Shown: one piece after another, positions 1,868 to 32,000 of the stretch | Layout: each line of letters opens with the position of its first letter | Position numbering within the stretch: position 1 is the stretch's first letter | Assembly (NCBI RefSeq): GCF_000014265.1 | Contig: NC_008312.1 | Coordinates: forward strand, 3,210,001-3,242,000 | DNA: 32,000 bases | Source: Trichodesmium erythraeum IMS101 | GTDB taxonomy: Bacteria; Cyanobacteriota; Cyanobacteriia; Cyanobacteriales; Microcoleaceae | Direction of reading: 5' to 3' | The notes under the pieces: generated by a model | The model's database searches: none | What the model was told of the DNA's origin: nothing | The model's input: the letters and a program-made list of their open reading frames with translations, nothing else | Translations under genes and position numbers: made by a program

Positions 1868-2171
1868 CTACTGAGGCCGAATAGTTAAAAGTTGGAGAAA
1901 TGTTAATGAATATTGAAAGTATGCTGATTATCTACTATCATAGATTAAGTTTTTTTCAAAAAATTACAGTTTTTTTTCATGGTTTACCAGCTCAAATGAA
2001 GTCAATTAAGACATAGTTAAAAGTTAACAATTACCAATAGAAAAAAAACCATACTTGCCAAATATCTAGGTGTGGTTTGCTGATTTATAGCTTCCCTAAT
2101 GTCATACTTATAACTGGGGAATCAAAGCTTGTATTTTTGAGTAAGAATAACTAAAATGACTATTAAAGTTA

Positions 2172-3308: not shown

Positions 3309-4297
3309 ATTTTCCATTTTACTTTGGTGACGGAAAACGGAAACCAAATAATACACCAGCTACTCTACCTGTGTCGCGACGAGCCGAATTTATCAAACCA
3401 GAAAATTATTTGGCAGATCCTGGTCTTCGCGATGCCTGCAACGTTGCTTTACTCTTGGGTCAACCCTTATTACTTACTGGAGAACCCGGTACTGGCAAGA
3501 CTTTGTTCTCTTATAGTCTAGCCTGGGAATTGGGTTTTGACGAACCACTGAAGTTTGAAACCAAGTCTACCAGCACTGCCCGGGATTTATTTTACAGCTA
3601 TGACTCCTTGAAACAATTTCAAGATGCCCAAAACAGTATATTAGACAGAAAACCTCTAGACTATCTGACATACAATGCTTTGGGTCAAGCCATCTTGCTC
3701 ACTAAAGAGCCCTCTGAAATTGAGAACTTTGTACCTCCAGATTTTTTTCACCCTGGTAAAAGACGCTCTATCGTTCTCATTGACGAAGTAGATAAAGCAT
3801 CCCGTGATTTTCCTAATGATATCCTCAACGAATTGGAGTATCTATACTTTCGGGTCCGAGAACTGGGCAATATCAAGATTGAAGCTAACTCCAAACTACA
3901 GCCTATAGTCGTCATTACCAGCAACTCTGAGAAAGACCTTCCGGATGCATTTTTGCGGCGTTGTGTTTACTACAATATTCCTTTTCCACAAAAAGAGCGC
4001 CTTGAGAATATTGTTACCAATAGACTAGGTTTGTACTCTGCTGGTAGTAGTGACTTTCTCCAGGACGCTCTAGATATTTTTTTTCAGCTACGAAAAAGCG
4101 GCTTGCGGAAGAAACCGACTACTTCTGAACTTTTGGGTTGGATGATAGCGCTCCAAGAAATTTCAGGCGGTGCAGAAAACCCCCTGGTTCAGTCTGAGCT
4201 GGCTCTGCAAACCTTGAGTAATTTGATTAAAACTGCTGAGGATCAAGATAAAGCTAAGGAGATAATGAAGCAATGGGTAAAAAGTCGCCAAAGTTAA
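3305..4297 (+). CDS. MoxR-like AAA+ ATPase (AAA_5 type)
   Basis: Walker A LLLTGEPGTGKT, Walker B IVLIDEVDKA, sensor/arginine region DAFLRRC. About one third identical by eye to the second MoxR-like ORF at 28692-29666. Translationally coupled to both neighbouring genes. Confidence 0.85.
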   Translation: MNFPFYFGDGKRKPNNTPATLPVSRRAEFIKPENYLADPGLRDACNVALLLGQPLLLTGEPGTGKTLFSYSLAWELGFDEPLKFETKSTSTARDLFYSYDSLKQFQDAQNSILDRKPLDYLTYNALGQAILLTKEPSEIENFVPPDFFHPGKRRSIVLIDEVDKASRDFPNDILNELEYLYFRVRELGNIKIEANSKLQPIVVITSNSEKDLPDAFLRRCVYYNIPFPQKERLENIVTNRLGLYSAGSSDFLQDALDIFFQLRKSGLRKKPTTSELLGWMIALQEISGGAENPLVQSELALQTLSNLIKTAEDQDKAKEIMKQWVKSRQS

Positions 4298-6798
4298 GCC
4301 CAGGGTGGCTAGAACCAGAACAGTTGATGGAATTCATTGATCAGCTTCGTAGAGAATACAAATACAATATCGGTGTATCCCAATATATTGCAGCTCAAGA
4401 GTTGATACTTGCTTTGAGTGCAAAAGGAGAGCAGTTAGAAGAACCCCAGAGGCTTAAAAGTCTTCTCGGTCCCTTGTTATGCAGTTCCCCAGCAGAACAA
4501 GAAGATTTCCAACTACGGTTTGACCAATGGATGGAACGTATGGGTTTTACCGTTCGCGAAGTTATTCATGCTGACGAAAATGCTGAGGCTCTTGAACAGG
4601 AGTTAAAAAAGATGCGGCAGGAATGGCGATGGCTACGGTGGGTACGTTTAGCGATCGCTGTTTTTCTTGTTATTGTTCTAACCAATTTCCTGATACAGGA
4701 TTTTTCGGCTTTAACTTCCCGGATGCAGCAGTTTCCCACTCCAACAGTAGATCCCTTGAAACTATTTCCACCTCAAACTCTTCAAGAATGGCGGACTACA
4801 TTTTTATGGTTAATACTCGTGCCCCCGGTTACATTCTTAGTTTGGAGACTATGGTGGCGTTGGCGTGTGGCTCTATACCTCAACCGTCGTCAGACCAGGC
4901 GGCCTCCTGAAATTCAGCGAGTGTCTATATCAGGGCTAAATGAGGAACTATTTCCCAGAGTTTTGTTTTTGCGCATTGCTCAGGGTTTGAGGCGACGTAT
5001 TCGGGTTCCATCCAATGAACTTGATATTGACAAGACCGTAGAAAAAACTGTCCGGGGAGGAGTTAGGTTTGCCCCAGTATACGGCTACTATAAGCTTCTT
5101 CCTGAATACCTGGTTCTGATCGACCGGGCAAACTACAGCGACCACCAGGCGAGACTTGTCAAGGAAATGATTGCTCAATTAACCGAGAACGAAGTCTTAA
5201 TTATAGGTTACTATTTTGATGGCGACCCCAGGGTATGTTTTCCGGTTACAGGAAAAGGCTCTCCTTGTAAGTTACGGGAAATTTCTTTGAAGTACAGCCA
5301 GCATCGGCTCCTCATCTTCTCTGATGCAGAAGGTTTTTTTAATTCCCTGACTGGGGAACTTGAAGCCTGGCTTGATTTATTTTCAAGTTGGTCTCAGCGG
5401 GCTGTTTTCACTCCCAAACCTTCGGAACATTGGGGATATCAGGAACTGAAATTATCCCGAGAGTTTATTGTTCTACCTGCAACAAATGATGGGTTAATTG
5501 ACTTGATACGGAGCATTGAACATGGAAAACTGCCTTATGTGTCTTCAGAAAAAGGTAGGGCACCTTATCCGGAAGCATTGAGAGTGCGGGGGCGGCGCTG
5601 GGTTGAGCAAGATCCACCTGAGCCATGGTTGCTGACTAATGTCCTAGGGTCTGTCCGAAACTATCTGGGGGAAGCTGGTTACTATTGGCTGAGTGCTTGT
5701 GCTGTATTTCCTGAGTTAAATTGGAATCTCACGGTTTACCTGGGGAATGCTCTTAGTGCTGGTGATGGTCGTTCTTTGCTTCAGGCTTGTCGGCTAACAG
5801 TTCTCGCTCGTTTGCCTTGGTTTCGATATGGTTATATGCCTGACTGGCTGCGCTTGTGGTTACTTTCTGAGTTACCTCGCCACCAGGAGGATGAGGTTCG
5901 TCAACTGCTTAGAAGTTTCTTGGTGGCAAAACCTGATGAGCAAGGCTCAGTTGGAAGATGGCAATTGGAAATTGCTCGGCAATACAGCAATGTTGTCTCT
6001 AGGTTGGTGCAACCACTTCTCCGCTTATTTTCTGGGGAAGCTCCTGAGGATAGTCCTCTGCGGGATTATATTTTTCAGGAGTTTATGGCAGGTCGTAAGG
6101 GACTCGCAGTGAGAATGCCGGAAGAGTTACGGGAGGAACTCCGTCGCAAATATTCACAACAAGTAGGATGGTGGTTTTGGTTTCAGTGGGTGTTGGCAAA
6201 TAGTGTGGGTTTGTTTGTGGGTTTGTTTGTGGGTTTGTTTGTGGGTGGACGGGTTGACAATATTATGGTTAGTTTTCGTATTGCTGTTTTCGGTACTGTT
6301 TTCGGTGCTGTTGTGGGATCACTCCAGTGGTGGGTACTTAGAAAACGACTTTCCCAGGCTAGATGGTGGATACTGGCAACTGCCTTGGCATCAGCTATAC
6401 TATTCTCTACAGCAGAAGTTATGTTGAATGCTGTAAGGGACGTTGTGAGCAATACTGTGATTCAGGTTGTTGTTATATCTTCTGTGGTGGGACTTGTTAT
6501 CGGATCAGCTCAATGGTTGGTTCTCAGAAAACAACTTTCTCAATCTCACTGGTGGATACTGGCAAGTGTTTTAGGAATAACTGCTACGCTCTTTGCTATT
6601 GTTTATTCTTCGCTCTTTGCTATTGTTTATTCTTCGCTCTTTGCTATTGTTTATTCTTCAAGGTTCGAGCTGGGTCTGCTTAAGACTTTTATATCCTTCC
6701 TGAGCATTTTCGGCATTATATACGGAGTAATCACTGGATTTGCCTTAGTTTGGCTGCTGCGACAACCGGGCAATTCTGTCATCAACAATAAAAAGTAA
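4273..6798 (+). CDS. Large membrane protein, predicted MoxR partner: N-terminal helical domain, 2 TM helices, CoxE-type vWA-like domain with degenerate MIDAS, C-terminal multi-TM repeat domain
   Basis: 841-aa ORF overlapping the MoxR stop by 25 nt (alternative ATG at 4327). LRRRIRVPSNELDIDKTVEKTVRGG..(20 aa)..YLVLIDRANYSD (nt 5017-5142) mimics the CoxE-type vWA lead-in and beta1 strand, but DxSxS is replaced by DRANY. LLIFSDAEG (5308-5331) resembles the vWA 'llTDG' strand. Hydrophobic helices near aa 118-140, 175-200 and 630-830. Confidence 0.6.
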   Translation: MGKKSPKLSPGWLEPEQLMEFIDQLRREYKYNIGVSQYIAAQELILALSAKGEQLEEPQRLKSLLGPLLCSSPAEQEDFQLRFDQWMERMGFTVREVIHADENAEALEQELKKMRQEWRWLRWVRLAIAVFLVIVLTNFLIQDFSALTSRMQQFPTPTVDPLKLFPPQTLQEWRTTFLWLILVPPVTFLVWRLWWRWRVALYLNRRQTRRPPEIQRVSISGLNEELFPRVLFLRIAQGLRRRIRVPSNELDIDKTVEKTVRGGVRFAPVYGYYKLLPEYLVLIDRANYSDHQARLVKEMIAQLTENEVLIIGYYFDGDPRVCFPVTGKGSPCKLREISLKYSQHRLLIFSDAEGFFNSLTGELEAWLDLFSSWSQRAVFTPKPSEHWGYQELKLSREFIVLPATNDGLIDLIRSIEHGKLPYVSSEKGRAPYPEALRVRGRRWVEQDPPEPWLLTNVLGSVRNYLGEAGYYWLSACAVFPELNWNLTVYLGNALSAGDGRSLLQACRLTVLARLPWFRYGYMPDWLRLWLLSELPRHQEDEVRQLLRSFLVAKPDEQGSVGRWQLEIARQYSNVVSRLVQPLLRLFSGEAPEDSPLRDYIFQEFMAGRKGLAVRMPEELREELRRKYSQQVGWWFWFQWVLANSVGLFVGLFVGLFVGGRVDNIMVSFRIAVFGTVFGAVVGSLQWWVLRKRLSQARWWILATALASAILFSTAEVMLNAVRDVVSNTVIQVVVISSVVGLVIGSAQWLVLRKQLSQSHWWILASVLGITATLFAIVYSSLFAIVYSSLFAIVYSSRFELGLLKTFISFLSIFGIIYGVITGFALVWLLRQPGNSVINNKK
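6205..6246 (+). repeat. Perfect in-frame 12-bp tandem repeat (gtgggtttgttt x3.5) encoding (GLFV)3 inside a TM segment
   Basis: Read directly: units at 6205-6216, 6217-6228 and 6229-6240, plus a partial unit at 6241-6246. Confidence 0.95.
6587..6658 (+). repeat. Perfect in-frame 24-bp tandem repeat (cgctctttgctattgtttattctt x3) encoding (LFAIVYSS)3 inside a TM segment
   Basis: Read directly: units at 6587-6610, 6611-6634 and 6635-6658, all identical. Confidence 0.95.
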
Positions 6799-9299: not shown

Positions 9300-10214
9300 T
9301 TGTAGACATTTTTATTAGGTTTAGTTAACCTAGACCATAGTAAAGAAGTCCTCTAAAATATCCTTACAAGATTTTGATGATGACGATCTAGTTCATAACG
9401 CGATATCATATCTTGTAAAATAATTTGTGTATAAAATAGTTAAAATTGAGGTAAGCCCTTTTCTATAAGAGCCTTCTGTCTCCTACTTTGCTTCCACAAA
9501 GTATAAGTATTCAGGTAGACATCATCCTCAAATATTTTTTAAATTTCTCGTTCTTCCCGACCCCCGACTTCCAACTCCTTATTCCCTCGGAGTTGGTAGA
9601 TCTAATGATGAATTATAGAATCTATTTGGTATCTTTTTCAAGCTAAATATACTTGCTGAATTAGCTAGTGTATCAAAAATTCGGGTGCTTGTAATGACCA
9701 AGTAGAGACTATTTCTGCCAATAGTAACTATAGCTTACTAATTAAGTCTAAAACCATTGACTGACATTAGTAAGTTTTTTTTTATTTGAAAAAAGTATCA
9801 GTTTTTCAGTGGGTATTGCTGATGTATGTTAGCATTTTGTGTCCCAGAATAGCCCAAAAATTGAGGAATAAATATACCCCACTACCTCCTAGGTATATCA
9901 TGTCCGGATAGTTCAGTGATCAAAAAAAAAGCGAACATCAGTGGCAACTCTATTCTCCTGCTCCAGAGCTACCCAGAGCTACATAGCCTCCTGGCAAAAT
10001 CCTCCAAAGTGTAAATATTCAACCGAACATGATATAATATATACTCCTGACTATGCCCCTCAAAAATTGTCATTAAGGTAAAAGTATAATACCCAATAAT
10101 TTCTAGAAACCAGAATTTCACAGACCTCTCTAGACCTCTCCATAAAAGCTTCTGAAACCCTGATAACAAAGTTCTAAAACCAGCATTTCTGGAGAGGTTT
10201 AACAACTCAAAGTA

Positions 10215-12668
10215 TTAACTTCTGAGATTAACTTTAAATTTATCAACCAAAGCATCCCTAACTTTTTGCTGCAGAGGATCAACATCAGCATCCGTAAGAG
10301 TGCGATCGCCAACTCGGTAAATTAACCGAAAAGCTAAACTTCTTTCACCATCGGGCACATTTTCACCCTGATATTCATCAAATAACTCAATAGACTCCAA
10401 TAACTTACCAGCAGCTCGAGAAATTACCTGTTTAATATCATCCACTGATACCCCAACTGTTACAAAGAAAGCAATATCTCGCGCAGCAGGAGGGAAAGTA
10501 GAATAACTACTAAACTTCCGTTTCCAAATATTTCCTTGAGTCATTACCGACACCAATACCCCTAAGTCAAGTTGAAAAACATAAACCTCATCTGGCAACT
10601 CTCGCTCCTGCCTTACTTGAGGGTGTAGTTGTCCAAAAATACCCAGATATTTACCTTGCAGCCACAATGACGCTGTCCGACCTGGATGTAGTAGAGAATT
10701 CTCTGAGTATGCTTTGTACTCAACCTTCAAATAGAGTCGTTCAAAAACTTGTTCTAAAATACCCTTAGCTTCAAACCAACTCAGAGGTTGTTCCTGACCA
10801 CCTCTAGTCCAACTTTTACTACCATTACTGATAACTCCAGCGATCGCCTCTGCCTCTTGATATTTTTCAACTTCATTCCAGAATATACGACCAACTTCAA
10901 ACCCATTTAAAGCTCCATTTCCTTTTTCCAGGTTATATTGAAAAGCATCAATAAGTCCCGTTAATAATTCTGTGCGCAAAGCAGAATATTCTACAAATAG
11001 AGGGTTAGCGATCGCTATTTGATTTTCCCCTCCTTGCTTAACCAAAGAATAGTGCATCAACTCTGTCAACCCCGCGCCGCGCAAAGCTGCCCGAATACTA
11101 CGGACTGCCAACTCTCCTGGAGGCAAATAACCTGCAGCACTTTTACTGGGTAAAGTTTCACAGAAATTATCATACCCATATAAACGTGCAACTTCTTCGA
11201 TCAAGTCTATTTCCCGTTCTAAGTCTCGATAACGATAAGCAGGTACTGTAACATTCCACCCCACCGCTCCTTTAGCCTCAATTTTACTCAACTCACATCC
11301 TAAAGACTTGAGAATACCTTCAACTGCTTCTGGTTGCAGAAAAGATTCATCTAAAGTATTTTCCGAAGGCTTAAGTGGCCCTAAAATTGCATTAATACGC
11401 TCTAGACTAAGGGATAACTTACGAGTTGCTGTAATACTATCTGCTTTAGTTGTAAAAGTGTCTTGATAACTCACCTTTCCTCCCGCTAATTCAGTAATTA
11501 AATGAATAGCGCGACTACAAGCCAATACTAATTCCGCAGTATTCACCCCCCGTTCAAACCTTGTAGAAGCTTCTGTGCGTAGGCCTTGACTTCGAGCTGA
11601 ACGACGGATAGCAATAGGAGCAAAAATTGCTGCTTCCAATAATAAATTTGTCGTCTGATCGCTCACCTCAGTTTCTTCACCACCCATAACTCCTGCCAAA
11701 GCCACTGGTTTCTCATTCGCCGTAATTAATAAAGTTTCAGTTTCCAGGGTGCGCTTCTGACTGTCCAAAGTTATGAGTTCCTCATTTTCATTAGCATAAC
11801 GAACTCCAATTGTCAATAACTTATGTCCTATGATCTGCTGAATTTTATCTTGATCAAACCCATGAAGTGGCTGACCCCACTCTAACAGAATATAGTTAGT
11901 GATATCCACCACATTATTGATAGCTCTAATACCTGTAGCTTCTAATCGTTCTTTTAACCATTTTGGTGAAGGACCAATCTTTACTCCTTCGATAACAGTA
12001 CCAATATAAATAGGGCAAGCACTTGATGCCGAGATATCTATTTTGATACTACTATCCCCCTCTTCATCTGGAATCAAAATTTCAGAAACATCTGGTATTC
12101 TTAGAGATGCTCCGGTCAGGGCCGCAACTTCACGAGCTACACCAATCATACTCAAAGCATCAGCACGATTTGCCGTTGTTGTCAAGTCTAAAATTACATC
12201 ATCCAGACCAAGTAAAGGCCCCACATCACTCCCCAACTCTGGGTTTTCCAGATCAAATATATGAATACCTTCAGAATCTTTTGTTAAGCCCAGTTCTGAC
12301 AAAGAGCAAATCATTCCTTCGGAGTGGACTCCCCGGAGTTTACTTTTTTTAATCTTTAAGTCAATGGCGGGCAAATAAGTACCGATGGTAGCTACTGGGA
12401 CATAGATATCTGCTGTGGCGTTAGAAGCTCCACAAACAATATTTAATGGGTCTGACTTACCAATGTCCACTTGGCAAACTTTAAGCTTATTGGCATTGGG
12501 GTGCTTGTCAGCTTCCAGTATTTTTCCTAATACTACCCCTGCTGACCAAGTGCTTCGATCTTCTATTTCTTCTACCTCAAAGCCTGCCATTGTCAAAGTT
12601 TCAGCTAACTCTTCTGGAGTAATATTGATATCTACCAGTTCTTCGAGCCATTTCAGAGAGATACGCAT
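10215..12668 (-). CDS. pheT: Phenylalanine--tRNA ligase beta subunit
   Basis: 817 aa. Canonical N-terminus [12 protein letters not shown] with a tRNA-binding OB domain ([14 protein letters not shown]), B3/4 and B5 regions, and a C-terminal FDX-ACB domain (DIAFFV...SLAFRL.YR). Confidence 0.95.
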
Positions 12669-22226: not shown

Positions 22227-22317
22227 ATTTGATAACTGAACTATTTGGATGTGCTCTGAGCATAATAACATGAAAATATGGTTGCTTCCATAGAATTTTT
22301 CATTGGTTCACCCTAAA

Positions 22318-22565
22318 GTTTATTACTTTGTAGCTTGGCTTGAGGTCACTAAACCCAAAAAAGCTAGATAATACCGCTGCAGCAGGAAATTTCAGGAAAA
22401 AGAAAAACAGGGTACACAGCAAAAGGGGAAAGGATAAAAGGTTTATTACTTTGTAGTTTGGGTTGAGTTCGCCAAACCCAACAAAGATAGATAATACTGT
22501 CGCTGCAGGAAATTTCAGGAAAAAGAAAAACAGGGTAAAGGGCTGAAGGGGAAAAGAGAAAAGGG
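22318..22565 (-). repeat. Two tandem ~124-bp units (22318-22440, 22441-22565) directly 3' of the stand-alone FGS gene; a partial third copy lies 3' of the 892-aa gene (about 23916-23968)
   Basis: Direct alignment: both units start gtttattactttgtag and share ggaaatttcaggaaaaagaaaaacagggta. They are roughly 80-85% identical by eye. On the sense (minus) strand each unit starts with a pyrimidine-rich tract cccttttc.cttttcccctt and contains a ttgggtt..aacccaa hairpin. Confidence 0.85.
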
Positions 22566-22697
22566 TTAAAGAGTTCTCCCGCCGTCGCAGACTACACGAA
22601 AACCGATAACGTCGTAGTGGACGTCGCGCCCAGCAGAGTTGTAGCGAATCGCAGAACGGCAATCATTAGGAATGTTGACCCAGGAACCGCCCCGCAG
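22566..22697 (-). other. Candidate DGR variable region (VR-B), including the stop codon
   Basis: See the DGR finding. Gapless 132-nt alignment with 23969-24100, with mismatches concentrated in codon positions 1-2 of NNY codons. Confidence 0.6.
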
Positions 22698-23411
22698 CGG
22701 TGAACGTTTTTTATTTCCATTTAGCCAAACACTGCCATCTGTAGGAGCATTTTCATAATTATCATGCCACTCATCAGCACACCATTCCCAGACATTCCCG
22801 TGCATATCGCTCAACCCAAAAGAATTAGCTACTTTAAAATAACCTACAGGTGTAGTTTCCTGACGATATTCTCCTTTGAGTCCTCTGCCGTAAGAACCTT
22901 CATCGCCTGTCCCGTCATAGTTGGCTAAGTCTGTAGTAATAGTTTCTCCAAAATGAAAGGGAGTTGTAGTTCCAGCACGACAGGCATATTCCCATTCAGC
23001 TTCCCTTGGTAGTCTATAATTTCTTCGAGTTAGTTTTGAAAGTCGTTGGCAGAATTCTACTGCTTCGTACCAATTCACTCGCTCTACTGGTCTTTGCCAT
23101 CTATCTATATCTTGGTACGGTTTTTTAAAGTAAGATGGATCTGGGTCTAAATCTTGTTTTTCTTTCAGGTCTGCTCGGGAGGCGATCGCTCTCCACTGTC
23201 CTTGAGTAACAGGATAACGGCCCATGAGAAACTCGGAGATAGTTACATTATGTTGGGGTCTTTCATTATTTCTACTTCCTTCTTCAGATTTTGGTGCGCC
23301 CATTGTAAAGGTGCCACTAGGAATTAAAAACATTTCCAGAGGCACCTCAGCATATTCTCTGTAACCTCGAATTTTTTGTTTTTGACGTTTTATGATAGGT
23401 GTTGTCGCCAT
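22566..23411 (-). CDS. Stand-alone FGE-sulfatase (SUMF1/EgtB/PvdO-type, FGS) domain protein
   Basis: 281 aa. Motifs IPSGTFTMG, RPQH.V....F.MG.YPVTQGQW, YRLP.EAEWEYACRAG, HGNVWEWC, LRGGSW, GFRVV. Roughly 75% identical by eye to the C-terminal domain of the 892-aa protein. Confidence 0.9.
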   Translation of the reverse strand: MATTPIIKRQKQKIRGYREYAEVPLEMFLIPSGTFTMGAPKSEEGSRNNERPQHNVTISEFLMGRYPVTQGQWRAIASRADLKEKQDLDPDPSYFKKPYQDIDRWQRPVERVNWYEAVEFCQRLSKLTRRNYRLPREAEWEYACRAGTTTPFHFGETITTDLANYDGTGDEGSYGRGLKGEYRQETTPVGYFKVANSFGLSDMHGNVWEWCADEWHDNYENAPTDGSVWLNGNKKRSPLRGGSWVNIPNDCRSAIRYNSAGRDVHYDVIGFRVVCDGGRTL

Positions 23412-23888
23412 GTAACTACTTTTGCAAATGTTGGGGGGGCTGAAGGAATTTTCAGTTTTACTCTATGTTGCTTAAAGTTTCCTCACCTAATTTTACCTTG
23501 AAGATAATCTTTTTGCAATTTTTTTAGTCTTTTTCTTCCAGGATGGAGATCACTGTTTCTAACTCAAATTGTTTGAGGAAAAACTCTAGAGTCTAGAAAT
23601 ATAGACTTAGGTTTAAATGCTTTTTATACGGTACAGAAATTGTTTGCAAACCTGTACAGAAGAGCAGGGAATTTACTCACCCCCAACCCCGACGTGGAGG
23701 GAAGGTCAAATTATTAGTCGTTATATCTCCGACTATAAATTTATGACTTTTGGGGAATCTTTCAATTATTGGGACATAGTATTTGACTAAATCATAGGTT
23801 TTTTGGACAACTGATAATTCTTTCATTTTTTTTTACTTTAGGGTTTTGTCATTTGTCGAAAATTTAAGACACTTGACACTTGGACATC

Positions 23889-23914
23889 AAAAAAATTTTT
23901 CCCGCTTCGCGGGA
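23889..23914 (-). terminator. Putative intrinsic terminator of the 892-aa gene
   Basis: Minus strand reads tcccgc-gaa-gcggga, followed by aaaa and then ttttttt. This is a 6-bp GC-rich stem (23900-23914) about 55 nt after the stop codon. Confidence 0.5.
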
Positions 23915-23968
23915 GGTAAAGGAAAAAGAAACATAGTGTAAAGGGCAAAAGGGGAAAAGGGAAAAGGG

Positions 23969-24100
23969 TTAAAGAGTTCTCCCGCCATCGCAGACAAGAC
24001 GAAAACCATCATAGCTGACGTGGACGTCGCGCCTAAGATAGCCGCTGCGAACCGCAGAACGGCAATCAATAGGAGAGTTGCACCAAGAACCGCCCCGCAG
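23969..24100 (-). other. Candidate DGR variable region (VR-A), including the stop codon
   Basis: See the DGR finding. Pairs with 22566-22697. Confidence 0.6.
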
Positions 24101-26647
24101 ACGGGTATAACTATCAGTAGAACTGTCTTCGTTACTATCAACCCAAGCGCTTCCATCTGTAGGAGCTCCCACATAGTTATCATGGCTATCATCAGCACAC
24201 CATTCCCACACGTTTCCATGCATATCATATAATCCAAAAGCATTAGCAGGAAATTGGCCTACAGGAGTTGTTTGTTTTTTATATTCTCCTTTGGGCCCAT
24301 CGCCGTAAGTAATATTACCATCATAGTTAACTAACTCAGGTGTTATAGTTTCTCCAAAGTAGAAAGGTGTAGTAGTTCCTGCCCGACAGGCATATTCCCA
24401 TTCTGCTTCACTGGGCAACCTGTACTTTTTTCCAGTTAATTTCGATAGTCTTTTACAAAATTCTACTGCTTTGTACCAACTCACCGTCTCAACTGGCCTT
24501 TGCCATCTATCTATACCTTTATATGGTTTTTTAAAACGAGATGGATCTGGGTTTAGGTCTTCTTTTTCTTTCAGGTCTGTTCGGGAGGCGATCGCTCTCC
24601 ACTGTCCTTGAGTAACGGGATATTTGCCCATAAAAAAGGAAGGGACAGTCACATCATGTTGGGGGCGTTCATCATCATAGCTACCTTCTTCACTTTTAGG
24701 GGAACCCATAGTAAAAGTACCACTAGGAATAGCCACCATTTCTAGACTAACGTTATCTGGAAGGCTTTGAGTAAAGTAAAAAGCTTTATGAATTGTTCTT
24801 TCGACAATTTTACCCAGCCTGTTAACAGTAGGAGTTTCAAAACTCCACTCTTGTAATTCTATTTCAACTTCCTTAGTTTCTTCTTCAAAAACAATAGTAG
24901 CAATTTCAATTTCAGTTTCAAACTCAATTAAATCTTTTATTTCATTAGTAGAACCAGTATTAGAAGCTCTTATTTGATTAGCAAAATAAGCATAAGAACC
25001 CCCTAATTTCTCCAATACTTCTGCCTGAACTTGAGCTAAAGGATAAACCTGTTTAGCTAGCTTATTCTCAGGTTTTGAAGAATCTATCAACAGAGCTTCA
25101 AATTCTTTGGGACTTATTCCCATTTTCTCAGCTAAATAAGAAGATACTTCCTCAATAACATCGGTAATTTCATCAACAGTTAACCCACTCAATAGTTCAT
25201 CCCGCACCCCATCAAAAAACTCAAATTCGATTTCATCTGGATTAATATTAGGGGTGATTTTTTCACTTAAAGGTTTAAATAACCCTCCCATTAATACTTC
25301 TGCCACATGACCTTGGTTGAACTGAGGAAGCATAGTATATTGAATTACTCTAATCACAGGTAAAGTAACAAGAACTGCGGAGAGATGTTCAGCTAGTCTA
25401 ACGGCATTAGGTGAGGCAATTTCTTGAAACCTTTCTACTCTTTCGGTAGCCGTAATTTCTTCTTGAACAAAGTTAGAATAACGATGATTATCAGGCTTAA
25501 TTCCATAACCAACAGACTGATTATTTCCTACTCCCATTAATAATTTTGACCATTCTTCTAAAATATTAGGGTCAAGACAAAGGACGGGTAATTTAAATTC
25601 TCCATCTTGAGAAATTTCTTGTTTTTTTGAACTAGGAATAATAGTTAAATTCTGATTAGAAGTAAGACGAACAGAAGCATTTAATTTTAAAGACTTTTGT
25701 TGACCAAGATTAGTGCGGAGCCACAAACGTTCTGGTAGAAGCTGCAATAAATTTACCATCCCTTTTCGCCCCCACTCCTGCAAAAGAGTATAGGTTTCTG
25801 GGCGAGACCAAACAGAAGAAACTAGATCGCTTACTAATAGAATTAAAGTTTTTCCACTGGTAGCCCCAATAAATTCTGGAGAGTAGGGACGCATCTGAGG
25901 ATCATCGTAGTGGAAAATTTCAATCCTTTGGTTTTGAGAGGATAAAATCAAAAATAGTATAAATTCAGGAGATACCCTAACAATAAGTTTAAACAACAAT
26001 TCCTGATGTAATAGTTGAGAAGAATTAAATTTTAATCCCCTAGTTTCAGTATGACGAAAAATCCCCAAACTTTGGAGAAATTTCCTCAACTCTTTAATAG
26101 TTTGTTTCCAAATTACGAGGGAGTTATTTACTTCTATAACCAATACTAAATCTAGCCAACGACGGGTTAAAGTTGGTTGTTTAATGGGCATCCAAATCTT
26201 TTGTTCGACAAAAAAATCAATAGTTTTAGCTTCGTTTAATTCCTGTTCTGTTGAGGATGGAAATTTTCGGCGTAAAGATTTTAAAGCAATACCAAGCTCC
26301 TGTTTATTGGGAATAGCTGGAGCATCGGGAACTTGTAGAGGGTAACGTTCCTTTTTATTATTGTCTGTTTTAGGTAAATATTTATCAGCAGCAGCTTTCG
26401 GATAAAGATCTAAATTTGTTTTTGCTGGAAGTTCAGGAATATTAACTTTTAAATTTCGTCTATTTTTCTCTGAGTAAATTTGATTGTTTGATTCAGATCC
26501 TTGAGCATCTTTTTTATCAGTTTCTAATAATTCTAATTCTCCATCCGGCAAAGTTTTTACCCATAACCAAATTATTTCTGCTATTTCTCTAGCAGTTGGG
26601 TCATAATTAGCTTTTTGTAATCCTTCTATGAAGTTAGAAATCGACAT
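23969..26647 (-). CDS. Multidomain protein: N-terminal helical domain, vWA-like domain with degenerate MIDAS, linker, C-terminal FGE-sulfatase (FGS) domain
   Basis: 892 aa. N-terminus FIEGLQKANYDPTAREIAEIIWLWV. ALKSLRRKFPSS.EQELNEAKTIDFF...RRWLDLVLVIEVNNSLVIW and TLILLVSD (about nt 25718-26245) parallel the vWA-like region of the 841-aa protein. The last ~260 aa (about 23972-24750) form a full FGS domain. Confidence 0.8.
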   Translation of the reverse strand: MSISNFIEGLQKANYDPTAREIAEIIWLWVKTLPDGELELLETDKKDAQGSESNNQIYSEKNRRNLKVNIPELPAKTNLDLYPKAAADKYLPKTDNNKKERYPLQVPDAPAIPNKQELGIALKSLRRKFPSSTEQELNEAKTIDFFVEQKIWMPIKQPTLTRRWLDLVLVIEVNNSLVIWKQTIKELRKFLQSLGIFRHTETRGLKFNSSQLLHQELLFKLIVRVSPEFILFLILSSQNQRIEIFHYDDPQMRPYSPEFIGATSGKTLILLVSDLVSSVWSRPETYTLLQEWGRKGMVNLLQLLPERLWLRTNLGQQKSLKLNASVRLTSNQNLTIIPSSKKQEISQDGEFKLPVLCLDPNILEEWSKLLMGVGNNQSVGYGIKPDNHRYSNFVQEEITATERVERFQEIASPNAVRLAEHLSAVLVTLPVIRVIQYTMLPQFNQGHVAEVLMGGLFKPLSEKITPNINPDEIEFEFFDGVRDELLSGLTVDEITDVIEEVSSYLAEKMGISPKEFEALLIDSSKPENKLAKQVYPLAQVQAEVLEKLGGSYAYFANQIRASNTGSTNEIKDLIEFETEIEIATIVFEEETKEVEIELQEWSFETPTVNRLGKIVERTIHKAFYFTQSLPDNVSLEMVAIPSGTFTMGSPKSEEGSYDDERPQHDVTVPSFFMGKYPVTQGQWRAIASRTDLKEKEDLNPDPSRFKKPYKGIDRWQRPVETVSWYKAVEFCKRLSKLTGKKYRLPSEAEWEYACRAGTTTPFYFGETITPELVNYDGNITYGDGPKGEYKKQTTPVGQFPANAFGLYDMHGNVWEWCADDSHDNYVGAPTDGSAWVDSNEDSSTDSYTRLRGGSWCNSPIDCRSAVRSGYLRRDVHVSYDGFRLVCDGGRTL

Positions 26648-26803
26648 TAGGCCTTAGGTTTTAGGTGGCAGGTGTTAGTATGCAGTCCGAGCGCTCCCCC
26701 CTCGAACTGCACCCCAACATTTCTCAATAAGCGTTTTCTTTTTGTTGAAATATTCTTCAGTTGCAGAATGCAAAACCCCTTCTATATATAGCTTTTAATT
26801 AGC

Positions 26804-28223: not shown

Positions 28224-28510
28224 AAGAGATTTTTAAAATAAAAATTAATACAAATTCCTAACTATTAATTATACATACCCTGTCCCCAATATCCGAAAAT
28301 ATCCTAGAATATCTTTATAATCATCCAAGAGAGACAAAATTATAACTATAACTTACTTAGACATTATATGAGAATGCAGTTGCTGTTTGTGCCTGGTTAA
28401 TAATTTTTACTTTTTGAAGTGCCTATAAAGTGAGAATTTTTATTCTGGCTCCATCCCAATAAAAGTGGTTTATAAAATTTTTTTGTAGTCAAATAACTTC
28501 CTAAATATTT

Positions 28511-28605
28511 AGGTTTTAGGTGTTAGGTTTTAGGTTTTAGGCGGCAGGTTTTAAGCGGCAGGTTTTAGGCGGCAGGTTTTAGGCGGCAGGTTTTGGGTTT
28601 TAGGT
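28511..28605. repeat. Heptamer tandem array, 13.5 units (AGGTTTT alternating with AGGCGGC/AGGTGTT); STRR-like
   Basis: Read directly: aggtttt aggtgtt aggtttt aggtttt aggcggc aggtttt aagcggc aggtttt aggcggc aggtttt aggcggc aggtttt gggtttt aggt. A 3-unit copy (aggtttt aggtggc aggtgtt) lies at 26656-26676. Confidence 0.95.
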
Positions 28606-28691
28606 ATCATCATAAATTTGAAATTGGAGGTAAGAGCTTAGTTAGATGAATTTTAAAATTAGAACTTATAACTAATAATTAGTAATTAACT

Positions 28692-29666
28692 TTACCTTCG
28701 ATCTAAAGACTGCAATAAACATTCAAGTAGATTTTTTTTATCCTGTTCTGAGGGAGACTTTTTCTTAGTTAGCATAAATATAAAATTAAGTAACTGATCG
28801 GTGGCGAGATTTTTACCCCCTTCTCGCTCTCTAACAAATCTTTCAATGAACTCTTTTGCTATATTTAAAGTATCTGTATCTGACTCTAAATTATCAAAAT
28901 GAGATTCAACAATTTGAGCAAGTTGTTCTCTGGTAGGTTCAGGCATTTCTAGTTGCAAACATCGCCGTAAAAAAGGTGGAGGAAAATCACGCTCCCCATT
29001 ACTTGTCATAATTACTAAAGGAAATTGTTGACAAGCAACTTTTCCCTCGTAAATATCAACTTTTTGATTATCATAAGTTCTCAAATTAACAATTTTTTCC
29101 TGCTCTGATATTCTTGCTAATTCAGGAATTTCAAATTCTCCTTCCTCAAATAAATTTAATAGATCGTTAGGTAAGTCAATGTCACTTTTATCAATTTCAT
29201 CTATTAATAATACCCTTGGATATTCATTGGGAAGAAATGCTGTTCCTACTGCACCTAACTGTATATATTTACCAATATTTGGTTTGTTTCCTAGTTGAGC
29301 ATCTTGTAAACGACCAATAGCATCATAACGATATAAACCATTACTTAAAGTAGTGCGGGTATTAATTGGCCATGTTAATACTTTTCCTAATTTTAGTTGA
29401 TAGGCGATCGCATAAGCCAAAGAAGATTTTCCAGTTCCCGGCTTTCCTGTCACCAAAAGAGGGCGACGCAAATATAAAGCGGCATTAACTAACTCAACTT
29501 GCCTATCCGAGACTTGAAAGGTTTTCCCTTTAATTTCTTCCCGAGACTTTTTTTCAGTAGTTTTGGCTTCAGTATTAAAACTTCTCCAAGGTGGAGGCTC
29601 TGGTAAATTTTTTATCCCATCATGTGGCTCATGATCTTTGTTAAAAATTTGCCAATTTTCAGTCAT
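28692..29666 (-). CDS. MoxR-like AAA+ ATPase (AAA_5 type), paralogue of 3305-4297
   Basis: Walker A LLVTGKPGTGKS, Walker B VLLIDEIDKS, PPFLRRC. It shares with the first MoxR the motifs Y.YD....QDAQ, LPND.LN and MTSN.E.D.P. Confidence 0.85.
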   Translation of the reverse strand: MTENWQIFNKDHEPHDGIKNLPEPPPWRSFNTEAKTTEKKSREEIKGKTFQVSDRQVELVNAALYLRRPLLVTGKPGTGKSSLAYAIAYQLKLGKVLTWPINTRTTLSNGLYRYDAIGRLQDAQLGNKPNIGKYIQLGAVGTAFLPNEYPRVLLIDEIDKSDIDLPNDLLNLFEEGEFEIPELARISEQEKIVNLRTYDNQKVDIYEGKVACQQFPLVIMTSNGERDFPPPFLRRCLQLEMPEPTREQLAQIVESHFDNLESDTDTLNIAKEFIERFVREREGGKNLATDQLLNFIFMLTKKKSPSEQDKKNLLECLLQSLDRR

Positions 29667-29752
29667 AATTAATTAATTTATAGTTAATAATTTAATAAAT
29701 TTATACAAGTTTAAAGATATGAGAAAAATACTTTTATTTTCTCATATAGAAT

Positions 29753-31135
29753 TTAAGAACTTAAAGCATATTTAGGCTCACTAGGTTCCGGTGGCATTCT
29801 CTCAGGGTTATCCCATAAGAGGCAAATATGCTTTCCAATATGTTCTTCTCCTTTTGCCTTTTTTCTCTCATCTGTTACTTCCTTTGGTAACTGATTAAAA
29901 TTACCTTGAACATTCCTGAGTATTCGATTAATTTCATTTTGGCAAGAAATGGTTTGTAAATCACGCCTTGACCAAATAGCAAGAGGCAGAGAGTTGAGTA
30001 CAATTAGGTCAAAAAACTTAGTTAGTTCAGAAAGTTTATTTAGTTTAATTCCTACGGTTTTATTTAGCCCTAATTCATAATCATCTGTGTGATAAAAATC
30101 TACCACATTACCTTGATTAGAGTTTAAATTTTCCCATTTTCTTTGCCAAGCTCCCCCTAAATCTTGAGCTGTATATTTTAACCTTTCAGCTAAACGAAAA
30201 GTAACAATATATTGCTTACACATTTTTGCAGGACGGTTGAGCTTTGTTACCTCCAGCCAATCAAAATAAGAGTTACTTTCTATAAGCAAATTAGTATCTA
30301 AAAATAACTCTATCCTCAAGTCTTTACTGCCAATTTTTTTCATTCTCTTATTGGATTCGTCTATCAGTTCTGTTAATTTTTTAGATAGATATTCCCGTTC
30401 AATCAAGTCTTTTTCTTGAATATTACGGATTAATTGACTAGACCAAAACCAACTTTGTATTTGTAAAGAACTATAATTCTTTTTCTTAAGCTCAATCAAC
30501 AAATAAGATTCTAGTAACTTGGGATTTTGGGTATCAGGTGAAGATTTTCTAAAATTTGGTGTTGCTGTTTCCTTAAACTCAGAATATCCAAAAAAATTAC
30601 CGTATTCTTCTAGCCATTTATCTAGGGTTTTTTGTAGATTTGAATCAGAAACTTGTTGTTGAATTCCTACTACAAATGGAATAATAAGCCGATATTTTTT
30701 TAGGGGAATAATACGATTTAGTTGAGTCAAAATATCATCAATATTCTTAACTGTTTTATCTGCCATTTCAGGGCGACATGATAAGTATATTTTTTCTAAT
30801 TTTTCAAAAGATTGATTCTGTAAATACTCTCCCAAATCATTAATTGCTTTATCTTCTTTATTCCTAGAACCCGATAAGTTTGTCTGTTCTTGTCTGTCAG
30901 TCTCAAACTCATTAAAAGCCTTAGGATTGATTTCTTGAATTTCATTTAGTAAATCATCTATTTTTTCGTGTTTATCAATATAATCAAATAAAATTCGGAA
31001 TCTTTGATTTTTACTTTGTCCATTTATAAATTGGCTATAAACATCATGAAAGCTATAAAAAACTAAATCTTCAAATTCGTCTGGTCCTAGAGCTTTGTTA
31101 ATTAAATTCCGAATAAGTTTAAGATCATATTTCAT
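29753..31135 (-). CDS. EAD-like N-terminal helical domain plus VMAP-C-like body (vWA-MoxR-associated adaptor; inferred)
   Basis: Start taken at the ATG at 31135 (MKYDLKLIRNL). The N-terminal ~75 aa fit the pattern L..L..L...L...EF..L.F........F.......K..R...L.DY......I..LL..I...NP seen in effector-associated/death-like helical domains. C-terminal motifs LRIELFLDTNLL, LPLAIWSRRD and HICLLWDNPERMPP match my recollection of VMAP C-terminal domains. Confidence 0.6.
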   Translation of the reverse strand: MKYDLKLIRNLINKALGPDEFEDLVFYSFHDVYSQFINGQSKNQRFRILFDYIDKHEKIDDLLNEIQEINPKAFNEFETDRQEQTNLSGSRNKEDKAINDLGEYLQNQSFEKLEKIYLSCRPEMADKTVKNIDDILTQLNRIIPLKKYRLIIPFVVGIQQQVSDSNLQKTLDKWLEEYGNFFGYSEFKETATPNFRKSSPDTQNPKLLESYLLIELKKKNYSSLQIQSWFWSSQLIRNIQEKDLIEREYLSKKLTELIDESNKRMKKIGSKDLRIELFLDTNLLIESNSYFDWLEVTKLNRPAKMCKQYIVTFRLAERLKYTAQDLGGAWQRKWENLNSNQGNVVDFYHTDDYELGLNKTVGIKLNKLSELTKFFDLIVLNSLPLAIWSRRDLQTISCQNEINRILRNVQGNFNQLPKEVTDERKKAKGEEHIGKHICLLWDNPERMPPEPSEPKYALSS

Positions 31136-31213
31136 TATAAACAAACAAATAAAAAAACAATGTAATAGACTAATTAATCACCAAACAAAATGATAACTAA
31201 TAACTAAAATATC

Positions 31214-31999
31214 TTACTGCCGCATAATCCAATAACCCCCCTCTTCCGACGGTTCTAACCGACCTCTTCGCTGCCCTGGGGAAGTATTATTAATTAATAA
31301 GTCCCGTATATCTTCAAGTACCAAACGAGCATCAGCAAAATAACCATGTCCTAATAAAGTTAAATCTATCTTAGAAACTTTTACCGTGTCTATTCCTTCT
31401 ACAACAGTAACAGGGGGGAAAAAACCAGCTCGGCCATGCTGATGAATAAGCGCTGAAGTTGCTAAGGCTTTGTCTTTTGATGATATGTATAATGTAGTTC
31501 GTTCTGCTAATTGATGATATCCTTTAGCTAACTCTTTAAACAAGTCAATATCTACATCTGGAGCGGCTAAAATAATTTGCCCAAAAGCAATATTAGTTAT
31601 TGTTTGAACTTGAGAAATAATTCTTTGGACTGCTCTGAGTAAACCTCGGTTTCCCATACTATGAGCAATAATATGAATTTTCTCAATGTCCGTTTTTTCG
31701 GCTAGGTTGAGTAAAAATTCTGTCATGTACTTTTCGCTGGCTTCAATACTTGCCTCGTCTACCGGATATGCTGATAATTTCCCTTGAGATGGCCAACTAT
31801 AAAAGGCTGTAATTCCTGGCACTTGCAGGTCAAACCCCATTTGTGCGGCTCTAATAGCTGCATCTTCAAAATTGACGTTGTATCCATGAACAAAGACTAA
31901 AGCAGACCTTTCATTTATTTCATGGTCTTTTAATTCTTCGTTGATATTTTCCCAAAATAGTTCTTTTTCCAGAATTTGCAAACTTTGAAAATGTAGTTT
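31214..31999 (-). CDS. DUF900-type alpha/beta-hydrolase (esterase/lipase-like), N-terminus outside the window
   Basis: LVFVHGYNVNFEDAA, SWPSQG, nucleophile elbow IIAHSMGNRG (GxSxG-type), AAPDVD, Y.SSKDKAL. The listed start is a TTG, and the frame stays open to the right window edge. Confidence 0.8.
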   Translation of the reverse strand, partial: KLHFQSLQILEKELFWENINEELKDHEINERSALVFVHGYNVNFEDAAIRAAQMGFDLQVPGITAFYSWPSQGKLSAYPVDEASIEASEKYMTEFLLNLAEKTDIEKIHIIAHSMGNRGLLRAVQRIISQVQTITNIAFGQIILAAPDVDIDLFKELAKGYHQLAERTTLYISSKDKALATSALIHQHGRAGFFPPVTVVEGIDTVKVSKIDLTLLGHGYFADARLVLEDIRDLLINNTSPGQRRGRLEPSEEGGYWIMRQ

Positions 32000-32000
32000 G

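What the first reader, a model, noticed from the sequence alone, without database searches (positions are those of the whole stretch)
22566..24100. DGR-type variable-region signature at the 3' ends of both FGS-domain genes
Gapless 132-nt alignment of 23969-24100 with 22566-22697 (sense strand is minus) gives 27 mismatches.
- 20 of them lie in codon positions 1-2 of 12 codons whose third base is the same pyrimidine in both copies. Sense codons (892-aa gene / 281-aa gene): tgc/gtc, tct/att, att/aat, gtt/att, agc/tac, ggc/aac, tat/tct, ctt/gct, agg/ggg, gtc/tac, agc/gac, tat/gtt.
- These are separated by blocks of perfect identity: ctgcggggcggt, gattgccgttctgcg, cgcgacgtccac, ggttttcgt, ggcgggagaactctttaa.
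- Protein view: RGGSW-x-N-x-P-x-DCRSA-x-R-xxxxx-RDVH-xxxx-GFR.
This is what adenine-specific mutagenesis of AAY codons in a template repeat produces. The C-terminal ~43 codons of a C-type-lectin/FGE fold are the canonical VR location (Bordetella phage Mtd paradigm; FGS-type targets are known in cyanobacteria). Just upstream the genes differ by a 15-nt indel and fall to roughly 75-80% identity. So the invariant VR scaffold is better conserved than the rest of the domain, as expected if both copies are rewritten from one template.
Caveat: 7 mismatches (gat/gac, ctt/gta, gat/atc, tct/tcc) do not fit an A-only rule.
Basis: partly seen in the sequence, partly recalled or inferred. Interest (0 to 1): 0.9.

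Follow-up and report, generated by a model that had tools for sequence, protein, structure and literature searches.

The report
Orphaned variable regions of a dead retroelement
The two gene ends really are variable regions written by a diversity-generating retroelement, but in this strain (Trichodesmium erythraeum IMS101) the element's template and reverse transcriptase have been deleted, leaving two frozen targets and small gene fragments, while wild relatives keep the whole element at the same spot.

Summary
In detail: there are 27 mismatches in the 132-nt gapless alignment.

**What the locus is**
- The window is Trichodesmium erythraeum IMS101. The genes are Tery_2071 (892 aa) and Tery_2069 (281 aa).
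  - the first 40 codons of a DGR avd gene (Tery_2070);
  - a 123-nt filler;
  - a 133-nt reverse-transcriptase pseudogene fragment.

**The intact element in relatives**
- The syntenic locus of Trichodesmium sp. MAG_R01 is 97-98% identical. It and several ocean contigs carry the whole cassette: VP1, avd, RT, TR, VP2.
- That TR has AAC/AAT at the predicted codons.
- IMS101 VR1 differs from it at 17 adenines and 1 other base. VR2 differs at 14 adenines and 7 other bases.
- Of the 27 VR1/VR2 mismatches, 20 lie on TR adenines (P about 1e-9).

**What happened in IMS101**
- Two deletions (1162 nt and 354 nt) removed most of avd and RT and the whole TR.
- The two published IMS101 TRs do not fit: 25-33 non-adenine mismatches, gaps and different 3' ends.

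**Population picture**
- VR1 is hypervariable at TR adenines only.
- VR2 exists as a few recombining alleles and lacks the downstream GC hairpin.

**Verdict:** this is a degraded third DGR locus, a known kind of system. The held papers do not list either gene as a DGR target. Interest is modest.

The parts
23969..26647 (-). VP1 gene Tery_2071 (892 aa): SAV_2336 N-terminal domain plus a C-terminal FGE-sulfatase/CLec domain. This is the upstream target gene of the cassette.
   Evidence: Pfam PF03781 at residues 636-885. NF041121 at 341 bits. Identity to ABG51312/Tery_2071. The ortholog is 900 aa in L034.
23969..24100 (-). VR1, the variable region of Tery_2071, including the stop codon.
   Evidence: Differs from the wild TR at 17 adenine sites and 1 non-adenine site, with no gaps. 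Eight distinct alleles in 9 population contigs, changed almost only at TR adenines.
23900..23914 (-). GC hairpin (CCCGCGAAGCGGG) after a pyrimidine-rich tract, about 55 nt downstream of the VR1 stop. It is a candidate DGR target-recognition hairpin/cruciform.
   Evidence: Predicted in the DNA fold of 23870-23968 and at the same place in L034. Similar GC hairpins follow VRs in other cyanobacterial loci. Function is inferred from the BPP-1 work in PMC3240598.
23707..23826 (-). avd remnant, the 5' part of the 49-aa ORF Tery_2070 (23677-23826). Only Avd residues 1-40 survive, and nucleotide homology ends at 23724.
   Evidence: NF033474 DivGenRetAVD E = 6.7e-10, profile positions 1-37 of 104. 88% identity to residues 1-40 of the intact 113-aa Avd of L034. 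Breakpoint.
23601..23723 (-). 123-nt filler at the first deletion junction. It replaces L034 9672-10833 (1162 nt: the avd 3' two-thirds and about 830 nt of RT). Its origin is unknown.
   Evidence: No match in L034, L032, L028, L029, L033 or L060, nor elsewhere in the window. Present in all contigs that carry the deletion allele.
23468..23600 (-). Reverse-transcriptase pseudogene remnant, corresponding to RT residues about 274-322. It has two in-frame stops.
   Evidence: 86% nucleotide identity to L034 10834-10966, which lies inside the 352-aa RT gene. tblastn E = 1e-13. Translation shows the stops.
23465..23467 (-). Second deletion junction. L034 10967-11320 (354 nt: the RT 3' end, the whole TR and its conserved 3' spacer) is missing here.
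   Evidence: Alignment breakpoints. No TR and no TR 3' spacer anywhere in the window.
22566..23411 (-). VP2 gene Tery_2069 (281 aa): a stand-alone FGE-sulfatase/CLec protein. This is the downstream target gene of the cassette.
   Evidence: Pfam PF03781 at residues 26-274. Identity to ABG51310. Orthologs follow RT-TR in L034, L035, L036, L032, L029 and L028.
22566..22697 (-). VR2, the variable region of Tery_2069, including the stop codon. It looks like a degenerate or inactive target.
   Evidence: 14 adenine-site and 7 non-adenine differences from the wild TR. The 24 population contigs show mosaics of two haplotypes, with the first three variable codons fixed. No GC hairpin downstream.

Best explanation
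The window holds the wreck of a third diversity-generating retroelement (DGR) of Trichodesmium erythraeum IMS101.

**The intact element (shown in relatives)**
- Gene order: VP1 (a SAV_2336-FGS protein) with VR1 and a GC hairpin, then avd, then RT, then a 131-nt TR, then VP2 (an FGS protein) with VR2.

**How it works (inferred from the established DGR mechanism)**
1. The TR is transcribed.
2. The Avd-RT complex copies it into cDNA and misincorporates opposite template adenines.
3. The cDNA replaces the VR. Replacement is guided by the shared 3' end (GGCGGGAGAACTCTTTA) and helped by the downstream hairpin.
4. The AAC/AAT codons of the TR therefore become any of many codons in the ligand-binding face of the C-type-lectin fold.

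**What happened in IMS101 (shown)**
- Two deletions removed the avd 3' two-thirds with most of RT (1162 nt, replaced by a 123-nt filler), and the RT 3' end with the whole TR (354 nt).
- What remains is Avd codons 1-40, a 133-nt RT fragment with stop codons, and the two VRs.
- Neither of the strain's two other TRs matches them.

**Inferred consequences**
- VR1 and VR2 are frozen alleles in this strain.
- VR1 was the active target up to or near the time of loss.
- VR2 had already drifted out of efficient targeting, because it has non-adenine mismatches and no hairpin.
For: - **Source genome.** The proteins are exact matches to Tery_2068-2071.
- **Remnants in the window.**
  - Avd fragment: NF033474 E = 6.7e-10 over profile positions 1-37 of 104, and 88% identical to the L034 Avd.
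  - RT fragment at 23468-23600, 86% identical to L034 10834-10966, with stops.
- **Intact cassette at the same locus.** L034 (Trichodesmium sp. MAG_R01) shares the flanking genes from the EAD7-CHAT gene to the kinase gene and is 96.7-98.5% identical. The cassette is also intact in L035-L039, L032, L028 Okeania, L029 and L060.
- **Accessory gene.** The L034 Avd scores 135.9 bits against NF033474, cutoff 80.
- **TR against the VRs.**
  - VR1: 17 adenine-site and 1 non-adenine mismatch.
  - VR2: 14 and 7.
  - 20 of the 27 VR1/VR2 mismatches fall on TR adenines, P = 1e-9.
- **Published IMS101 TRs.** TR1 and TR2 show 25-33 non-adenine mismatches, gaps and unrelated 3' ends.
- **Published target lists.** Tery_2069 and Tery_2071 are absent from them.
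- **Window-wide search.** No TR, no TR spacer and no further RT or Avd anywhere in the window.
- **Population data.** VR1 shows 106 adenine-site and 5 non-adenine changes over 9 contigs.
Against: - I could not scan the whole IMS101 chromosome. An unlinked solitary copy of this TR is excluded only indirectly, by the published RT and TR inventory.
- Six different VR1 alleles sit on contigs that carry the same deletion. Four of them have zero non-adenine mismatches to the wild TR. On its face this suggests rewriting after the deletion.
  - I attribute this to recombination (mosaic flanking SNPs) and to possible chimeric metagenome assembly. That is an inference.
- The role of the hairpin and the inactivity of VR2 are inferred from BPP-1 experiments and from allele patterns. 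They were not measured.
Confidence: 0.88

Rival explanations
1. The two VRs are live remote targets of one of the two DGRs still present in IMS101 (DGR1 with RT Tery_1035, or DGR2 with RT Tery_1728/1729). IMS101 is already known to have many remote targets.
For: - IMS101 has 18 published remote targets. Tery_2077, about 5 kb from Tery_2071, is one of them.
- The DGR1 RT is intact according to the literature.
Against: - TR1 and TR2 align to VR1 and VR2 only with 25-33 non-adenine mismatches plus 2-8 internal gaps. Their 3' ends, the part that directs homing, are unrelated.
- The Tery_2077 VR differs from the wild TR of this locus at 31 non-adenine positions.
- Both genes are listed only as unlabelled CLec paralogs and are not in the target table.
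Confidence: 0.02
2. VR1 is still being rewritten in genomes that carry the deletion. The source would be a cognate TR and RT located elsewhere in those genomes, or repeated import from strains with the intact cassette. On this reading the locus is switched off only in cis.
For: - Six distinct VR1 alleles occur on deletion-allele contigs, including the cultured strain 21-75 (L054). Four of them have 0 non-adenine mismatches to the wild TR.
- The RT remnant on the same contigs is 14% diverged.
- Both allele types are common in Tara Oceans assemblies.
Against: - The flanks of VR1 are a mosaic of SNP blocks shared between deletion and intact carriers. Recombination can therefore move VR1 alleles onto the deletion background.
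- Metagenome contigs can be chimeric, and contigs L045 and L052 are visibly odd.
- The two cultured deletion carriers have 1 and 3 non-adenine changes in VR1, as expected for frozen, slowly decaying VRs.
- No third DGR RT is listed for IMS101.
Confidence: 0.08
3. There is no retroelement history. The two paralogous lectin-fold C-termini diverged by ordinary mutation and positive selection on ligand-contact residues.
For: Contact residues of C-type-lectin folds are often under diversifying selection. The pattern of first and second codon positions changed with the third conserved could in principle reflect selection.
Against: - An independent TR in sister genomes has adenines exactly at the variable sites (P = 1e-9 to 2e-11).
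- avd and RT remnants lie between the genes.
- Identity outside the adenine sites (93%) exceeds that of the rest of the domain (73-82%).
Confidence: 0.01

Closest known systems
DGR2 of Trichodesmium erythraeum IMS101 (RT Tery_1728/1729, 265-nt TR RNA; Pfreundt et al. 2014, PMC4143802; Paul and Eren 2022, PMC8867640)
   Same: - Same organism.
- Same target fold, a C-terminal FGE-sulfatase/DUF323 (CLec) domain.
- Same layout, with two target genes flanking RT and TR.
- A GC hairpin follows the VR.
- Also disabled in the culture strain, where the RT carries a stop codon.
- Wild populations keep an intact copy.
   Different: - A different TR family: 25-27 non-adenine mismatches to VR1 and VR2 and an unrelated 3' end.
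- DGR2 keeps its TR and has many remote targets. Here the TR and most of RT and avd are physically deleted, and only the two flanking targets are known.
- This locus is not in the published inventories.
Bordetella phage BPP-1 DGR (mtd VR, TR, avd, brt; target-site rules in Guo et al. 2011, PMC3240598)
   Same: - Adenine-specific TR-to-VR differences in AAY codons.
- The VR occupies the last 40 or so codons of a C-type-lectin fold.
- An Avd accessory protein.
- A shared 3' homology and a GC hairpin downstream of the VR.
   Different: - A chromosomal cyanobacterial element with two flanking targets.
- The hairpin lies about 55 nt after the stop, behind a pyrimidine tract, with a 5-6 bp stem and a 3-nt loop. 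In phage DGRs it lies 4-34 bp away, with a 7-10 bp stem and a GRNA loop.
- The targets are intracellular conflict-system-type proteins rather than a phage tail fibre.
- In this genome the machinery is gone.
Degenerate DGR loci (Thiohalocapsa PB-PSB1, Dore et al. 2024, PMC10907252; degraded cassette in Anabaena sp. 90, Vallota-Eastman et al. 2020, PMC7517822)
   Same: - Target genes with VR signatures sit next to missing or pseudogenised DGR machinery.
- The targets are fused to conflict-system domains in a multicellular bacterium.
   Different: - In Thiohalocapsa each class keeps one complete locus in the same genome that can serve the degenerate ones. Here no cognate TR is known in the genome.
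- The complete version exists as an allele of the same locus in other strains of the population.

Membership tests
Diversity-generating retroelement (DGR) target / variable region | The VR is a near-copy of a template repeat and differs from it (almost) only where the TR has adenine. | tested here: met
   Tested against the TR of the syntenic locus (identical in L034-L039).
- VR1: 17 adenine-site and 1 non-adenine difference.
- VR2: 14 and 7.
- P = 2e-11 and 1e-5 respectively.

The TR comes from sister genomes, not from this one.
Diversity-generating retroelement (DGR) target / variable region | The VR lies at the 3' end of an ORF encoding a C-type-lectin/FGE-sulfatase-type fold. | tested here: met
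   PF03781 covers residues 636-885 of 892 and 26-274 of 281. The VRs are the last 43 codons.
Diversity-generating retroelement (DGR) target / variable region | A 3' homing element shared with the TR, and a GC-rich inverted repeat downstream of the VR. | tested here: inconclusive
   - The shared 3' end GGCGGGAGAACTCTTTA is present in both VRs and in all TRs.
- The hairpin CCCGCGAAGCGGG is present after VR1 and absent after VR2.
- Its function here is inferred from BPP-1.
Diversity-generating retroelement (DGR) target / variable region | Site-specific hypervariability in populations, confined to TR-adenine positions. | tested here: met
   - VR1: 8 alleles in 9 contigs, with 106 adenine-site and 5 non-adenine changes.
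- VR2 does not meet this. Its 24 contigs are mosaics of two haplotypes that share 6-8 non-adenine differences.
Complete, functional DGR cassette in this genome | A cognate template repeat is present in the same genome. | tested here: not met
   - No third copy and no TR spacer in the window.
- The TR position is deleted.
- The published TR1 and TR2 of IMS101 are not cognate.
- The rest of the chromosome could not be scanned directly.
Complete, functional DGR cassette in this genome | A DGR-type reverse transcriptase gene next to the TR. | tested here: not met
   Only residues about 274-322 survive, with two stops. Orthologous loci have an intact 352-aa RVT_1 protein.
Complete, functional DGR cassette in this genome | The Avd accessory protein (four-helix bundle, about 105-115 aa). 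| tested here: not met
   Only 37 of 104 profile positions are present (39.2 bits, cutoff 80). The L034 ortholog is 113 aa and scores 135.9 bits.

The most novel reading that the evidence does not exclude
The intact and deleted forms of this DGR are two alleles of one locus that coexist in ocean Trichodesmium populations. VR1 keeps acquiring fresh adenine-site variants even on the deleted allele, either through an unlinked helper (a cognate TR and RT elsewhere, or the heterologous DGR1 RT) or through frequent gene conversion from intact strains. The population would then carry a natural on/off polymorphism for targeted hypermutation of one conflict-system sensor, with diversity shared horizontally.
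Probability: 0.1. Interest if true: 0.55.

Novelty: new member of a known kind. Interest (0 to 1): 0.35.

Why it matters
- **Annotation.** It adds a third, decayed DGR locus to T. erythraeum IMS101, the reference strain for marine nitrogen-fixing cyanobacteria. It also explains two CLec paralogs that published surveys left unassigned. Tery_2070 is an avd stub, and Tery_2069 and Tery_2071 are former DGR targets.
- **Method.** TR-centred DGR finders miss orphaned VRs. Pairwise comparison of paralogous C-termini, followed by a look at syntenic loci in relatives, recovers them.
- **Biology.** The same locus exists with and without the mutagenic machinery in wild populations. That gives a natural contrast for asking how fast a target decays once diversification stops, and whether the downstream hairpin decides which of two adjacent targets is used.

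The mechanism itself is not new.

Tried and rejected
- **Genome-collection scan** with GATTGCCGTTCTGCGNNTCGC.
  - It gave 23 hits, none from Trichodesmium, although both window VRs contain the pattern.
  - So the source region is masked or absent in that collection.
  - In hindsight the pattern would also have missed the TR, which has AAT rather than GAT at codon 11.
  - The scan gave no information about the source genome.
- **Homolog search with the 49-aa Avd stub**. It returned only five short fragments. Contigs for one of them were uninformative.
- **RT cluster P0202**. I followed it because its contig length equalled that of L031. It turned out to be an unrelated cassette (L033), so the match was a coincidence.
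- **Metagenome scan with the TR 3' spacer pattern**. It found only two loci (L060, and L061 which equals L029). It could not test for a second genomic site of this TR in T. erythraeum.
- **Rfam scan of the window**. No family matched.
- **Search for the origin of the 123-nt filler**. No match was found anywhere I could look.
- **Rejected: TR1 or TR2 of IMS101 as templates**.
- **Rejected: ordinary paralog divergence**.
- **Rejected: L045 and L052 as evidence for a real inverted cassette.** The junction lies exactly in the hairpin loop and creates a near-perfect long palindrome. I treat it as a probable fold-back assembly artefact.
Full report
**1. The observation**

Reading the minus strand, 23969-24100 and 22566-22697 align without gaps and show 27 mismatches in 132 nt.

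- Similarity runs on for about 50 nt past both stop codons.
- It breaks down immediately upstream of CTGCGGGGCGG.
- Both genes end in an FGE-sulfatase domain (PF03781, E about 1e-56).
- The 892-aa protein also has a SAV_2336 N-terminal domain.

**2.

The 49-aa ORF at 23677-23826, directly downstream of the 892-aa gene, matches the first 37 of 104 positions of the DGR accessory protein Avd (NF033474, E = 6.7e-10; also PF22296).

No reverse transcriptase ORF and no third copy of the repeat exist in the window. The 394-aa ORF downstream is a GT4 glycosyltransferase.

**3. Source**

Exact-sequence look-up identifies the proteins as Tery_2068, Tery_2069 (281 aa), Tery_2070 (49 aa) and Tery_2071 (892 aa) of Trichodesmium erythraeum IMS101.

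From the published coordinates of the neighbouring Tery_2077 and its distance in L001, the window is inferred to be about 3,210,001-3,242,000 of CP000393.

**4. The intact element in relatives**

Homologs of the 281-aa protein led to cassettes with the order VP1, avd, RT, TR, VP2.

- They were found in Okeania sp. SIO2C2 (L028), in two metagenome lineages (L029; L032) and in Trichodesmium sp. MAG_R01 (L034).
- L034 shares the whole gene neighbourhood with the window:
  - on one side the EAD7-CHAT, EAD7-VMAP-C, AAA, cupin and TauE genes;
  - on the other side the 138/153-aa ORF, the GT4, TerB, amidase and kinase genes.
- L034 is 96.7-98.5% identical to the window at the nucleotide level.
- Between VP1 and VP2, L034 carries a 113-aa Avd (135.9 bits against NF033474, cutoff 80), a 352-aa RT, and a TR at 11081-11211.
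- Five further ocean contigs (L035-L039) carry the identical TR.

**5. The deletions in IMS101**

The fine alignment gives the following correspondences.

| Window | L034 | Content |
|---|---|---|
| 23800-23724 | 9595-9671 | avd 5' end |
| 23723-23601 | no match | 123-nt filler |
| 23600-23468 | 10834-10966 (86% identical) | inside the RT gene |
| 23465 onward | 11321 onward | upstream of VP2 |

- Deletion 1 removed 1162 nt: the avd 3' part and most of RT.
- Deletion 2 removed 354 nt: the RT 3' end, the entire TR and its conserved 3' spacer.
- The RT remnant translates with two stops.
- Across the whole window, tblastn finds only Avd residues 1-40 and RT residues 274-322.
- The TR query finds only VR1 and VR2, and the TR spacer is absent.

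**6. Test of the adenine rule**

The wild TR reads CTG CGG GGC GGT TCT TGG AAC AAC AAT CCT AAT AAT TGC CGT TCT GCG GTT CGC AAC AAC TAT AAT AGG CGC GAC GAC CAC AAC AAC AAT ACT GGT TTT CGT CTT GTC TGC GAT GGC GGG AGA ACT CTT TA.

So the predicted AAC/AAT codons are there. The TR has 33 adenines in 131 positions.

| Comparison | Mismatches on TR adenines | Other mismatches | P |
|---|---|---|---|
| IMS101 VR1 vs TR | 17 | 1 | 2e-11 |
| IMS101 VR2 vs TR | 14 | 7 | 1.2e-5 |
| VR1 vs VR2 | 20 | 7 | 1.1e-9 |

TR and VR homology ends at ...CTCTTTA.

- TRs then continue with the conserved spacer CAGTGAGAGTTGGCAAG....
- VRs continue with a CCCTTT-rich tract.

**7. Is there another template in this genome?**

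Paul and Eren 2022 (PMC8867640, supplementary Tables S1 and S2) give the sequences of both IMS101 TRs, ten RT genes and 18 remote targets.

- Tery_2069 and Tery_2071 are not listed.
- Vallota-Eastman et al. 2020 list ABG51310 and ABG51312 only as unlabelled CLec paralogs.
- Aligning TR1 and TR2 to VR1 and VR2 gives 25-33 non-adenine mismatches, internal gaps and unrelated 3' ends.
- The neighbouring published target Tery_2077 belongs to the TR2 family and differs from this locus's TR at 31 non-adenine positions.

So no cognate template is known in IMS101. I could not scan the chromosome myself, which is the main residual uncertainty.

**8. Population data**

The deletion allele, recognised by its filler, is common.

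- It occurs in IMS101, GBRTRLIN201, strain 21-75, several MAGs and many Tara contigs.
- VR1 shows 8 distinct alleles in 9 contigs. Together they carry 106 adenine-site and only 5 non-adenine changes relative to the wild TR.
- Six of those alleles are on deletion-allele contigs.
- VR2 behaves differently. Its 24 contigs are mosaics of two haplotypes that share 6-8 non-adenine differences, and the first three variable codons (GTC AAC ATT) are fixed.
- Several of the non-adenine states in VR2 (TCC, GTA) match the TR of the L029 lineage. This suggests VR2 was last written by an older template variant.
- Flanking SNPs form blocks that are shuffled between deletion and intact carriers. Recombination is therefore frequent here and can explain diverse VR1 alleles on the deletion background.
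- The two cultured deletion carriers show 1 and 3 non-adenine changes in VR1, as expected for frozen regions.

**9. Target-site anatomy**

- A GC hairpin (CCCGCGAAGCGGG, window 23900-23914) lies about 55 nt downstream of VR1. It is found at the same place in L034, and downstream of VR2 in L032.
- It is absent downstream of VR2 in the T. erythraeum-type loci, whether deleted or intact.
- In the BPP-1 DGR such a hairpin/cruciform is required for efficient retrohoming (PMC3240598).
- I infer, without a test, that its absence explains why VR2 is no longer diversified even where RT and TR are intact.

**10. Conclusion**

In this genome, however, it is a fossil. The cassette that wrote it has been cut down to an avd stub and an RT shard, and its TR is gone.

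The system is a known kind. It is closest to DGR2 of the same organism and to the 'degenerate loci' described in Thiohalocapsa. This particular locus is not in the inventories I could read.

Interest is modest. The most novel reading still open is continued rewriting of VR1 on the deleted allele, and I rate it at about 10%.

Noticed in passing
L001 881-2791 (just beyond window position 32000): Tery_2077, a caspase-FGS protein, lies about 5 kb beyond Tery_2071. It is a published remote target of DGR2, and its VR belongs to a different TR family (31 non-adenine differences from this locus's TR). Targets of two unrelated DGR templates therefore sit in one gene neighbourhood.
   Followed up: partly
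window 893-6798 and 28692-31981: The VR genes are embedded in conflict-system-type genes.
- One side: a caspase (893-1867), an inactive-STAND protein (2172-3308), an AAA_5 ATPase (3305-4297) and an 841-aa ORF with no Pfam hit (4273-6798).
- Other side: an AAA_5 ATPase (28692-29666), EAD7-VMAP-C (29753-31144) and a DUF900 hydrolase (31214-31981) that is part of an EAD7-CHAT-DUF900 protein.
   Followed up: partly
window 22315-22560: A 123-nt tandem duplication (85% identical copies) starts right after the VR2 stop codon. Each copy begins with the pyrimidine-rich motif that follows VRs and contains a GTTGGGTT...AACCCAAAC inverted repeat. It occupies the place where VR1 has its GC hairpin.
   Followed up: partly
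L045 1707-2071 and L052 (same structure): In two ocean contigs an inverted avd-RT-TR module (94-96% identical to L034 and L032) is joined to the deletion allele exactly at the loop of the VR1 hairpin. This makes a palindrome with arms of about 180 nt. It is probably a fold-back assembly artefact, but a real hairpin-mediated inversion is not excluded.
   Followed up: partly
window 23905-23907 (hairpin loop); alignment columns 916-918: The 3-nt loop of the VR1 hairpin is GAA in some contigs (window, L040, L055, L034, L032) and its complement TTC in others (L047, L048, L051, L054, L037). The state is independent of whether the cassette is intact. In BPP-1 the loop sequence is orientation-dependent.
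   Followed up: no
window 28504-28608 and 26642-26676: Arrays of heptamer tandem repeats (AGGTTTT/AGGCGGC) in intergenic DNA. They look like cyanobacterial short tandemly repeated sequences.
   Followed up: no
L029 2580-12383: In one lineage the RT-TR-VP2 module sits beside genes typical of phages or conjugative elements: ArdA, Bro-N, DUF932, a ribonucleotide reductase with an intein, and dUTPase. This hints that the cassette family is carried on mobile DNA.
   Followed up: no
Genome-contig collection: The pattern GATTGCCGTTCTGCGNNTCGC occurs twice in the window, yet the scan returned no Trichodesmium record. The source region therefore seems to be masked or missing in that collection.
   Followed up: no
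window 23601-23723: The 123-nt filler at the first deletion junction has no detectable relative in the window or in any fetched locus. Its origin is unexplained; it may be a scar of a mobile element.
   Followed up: partly
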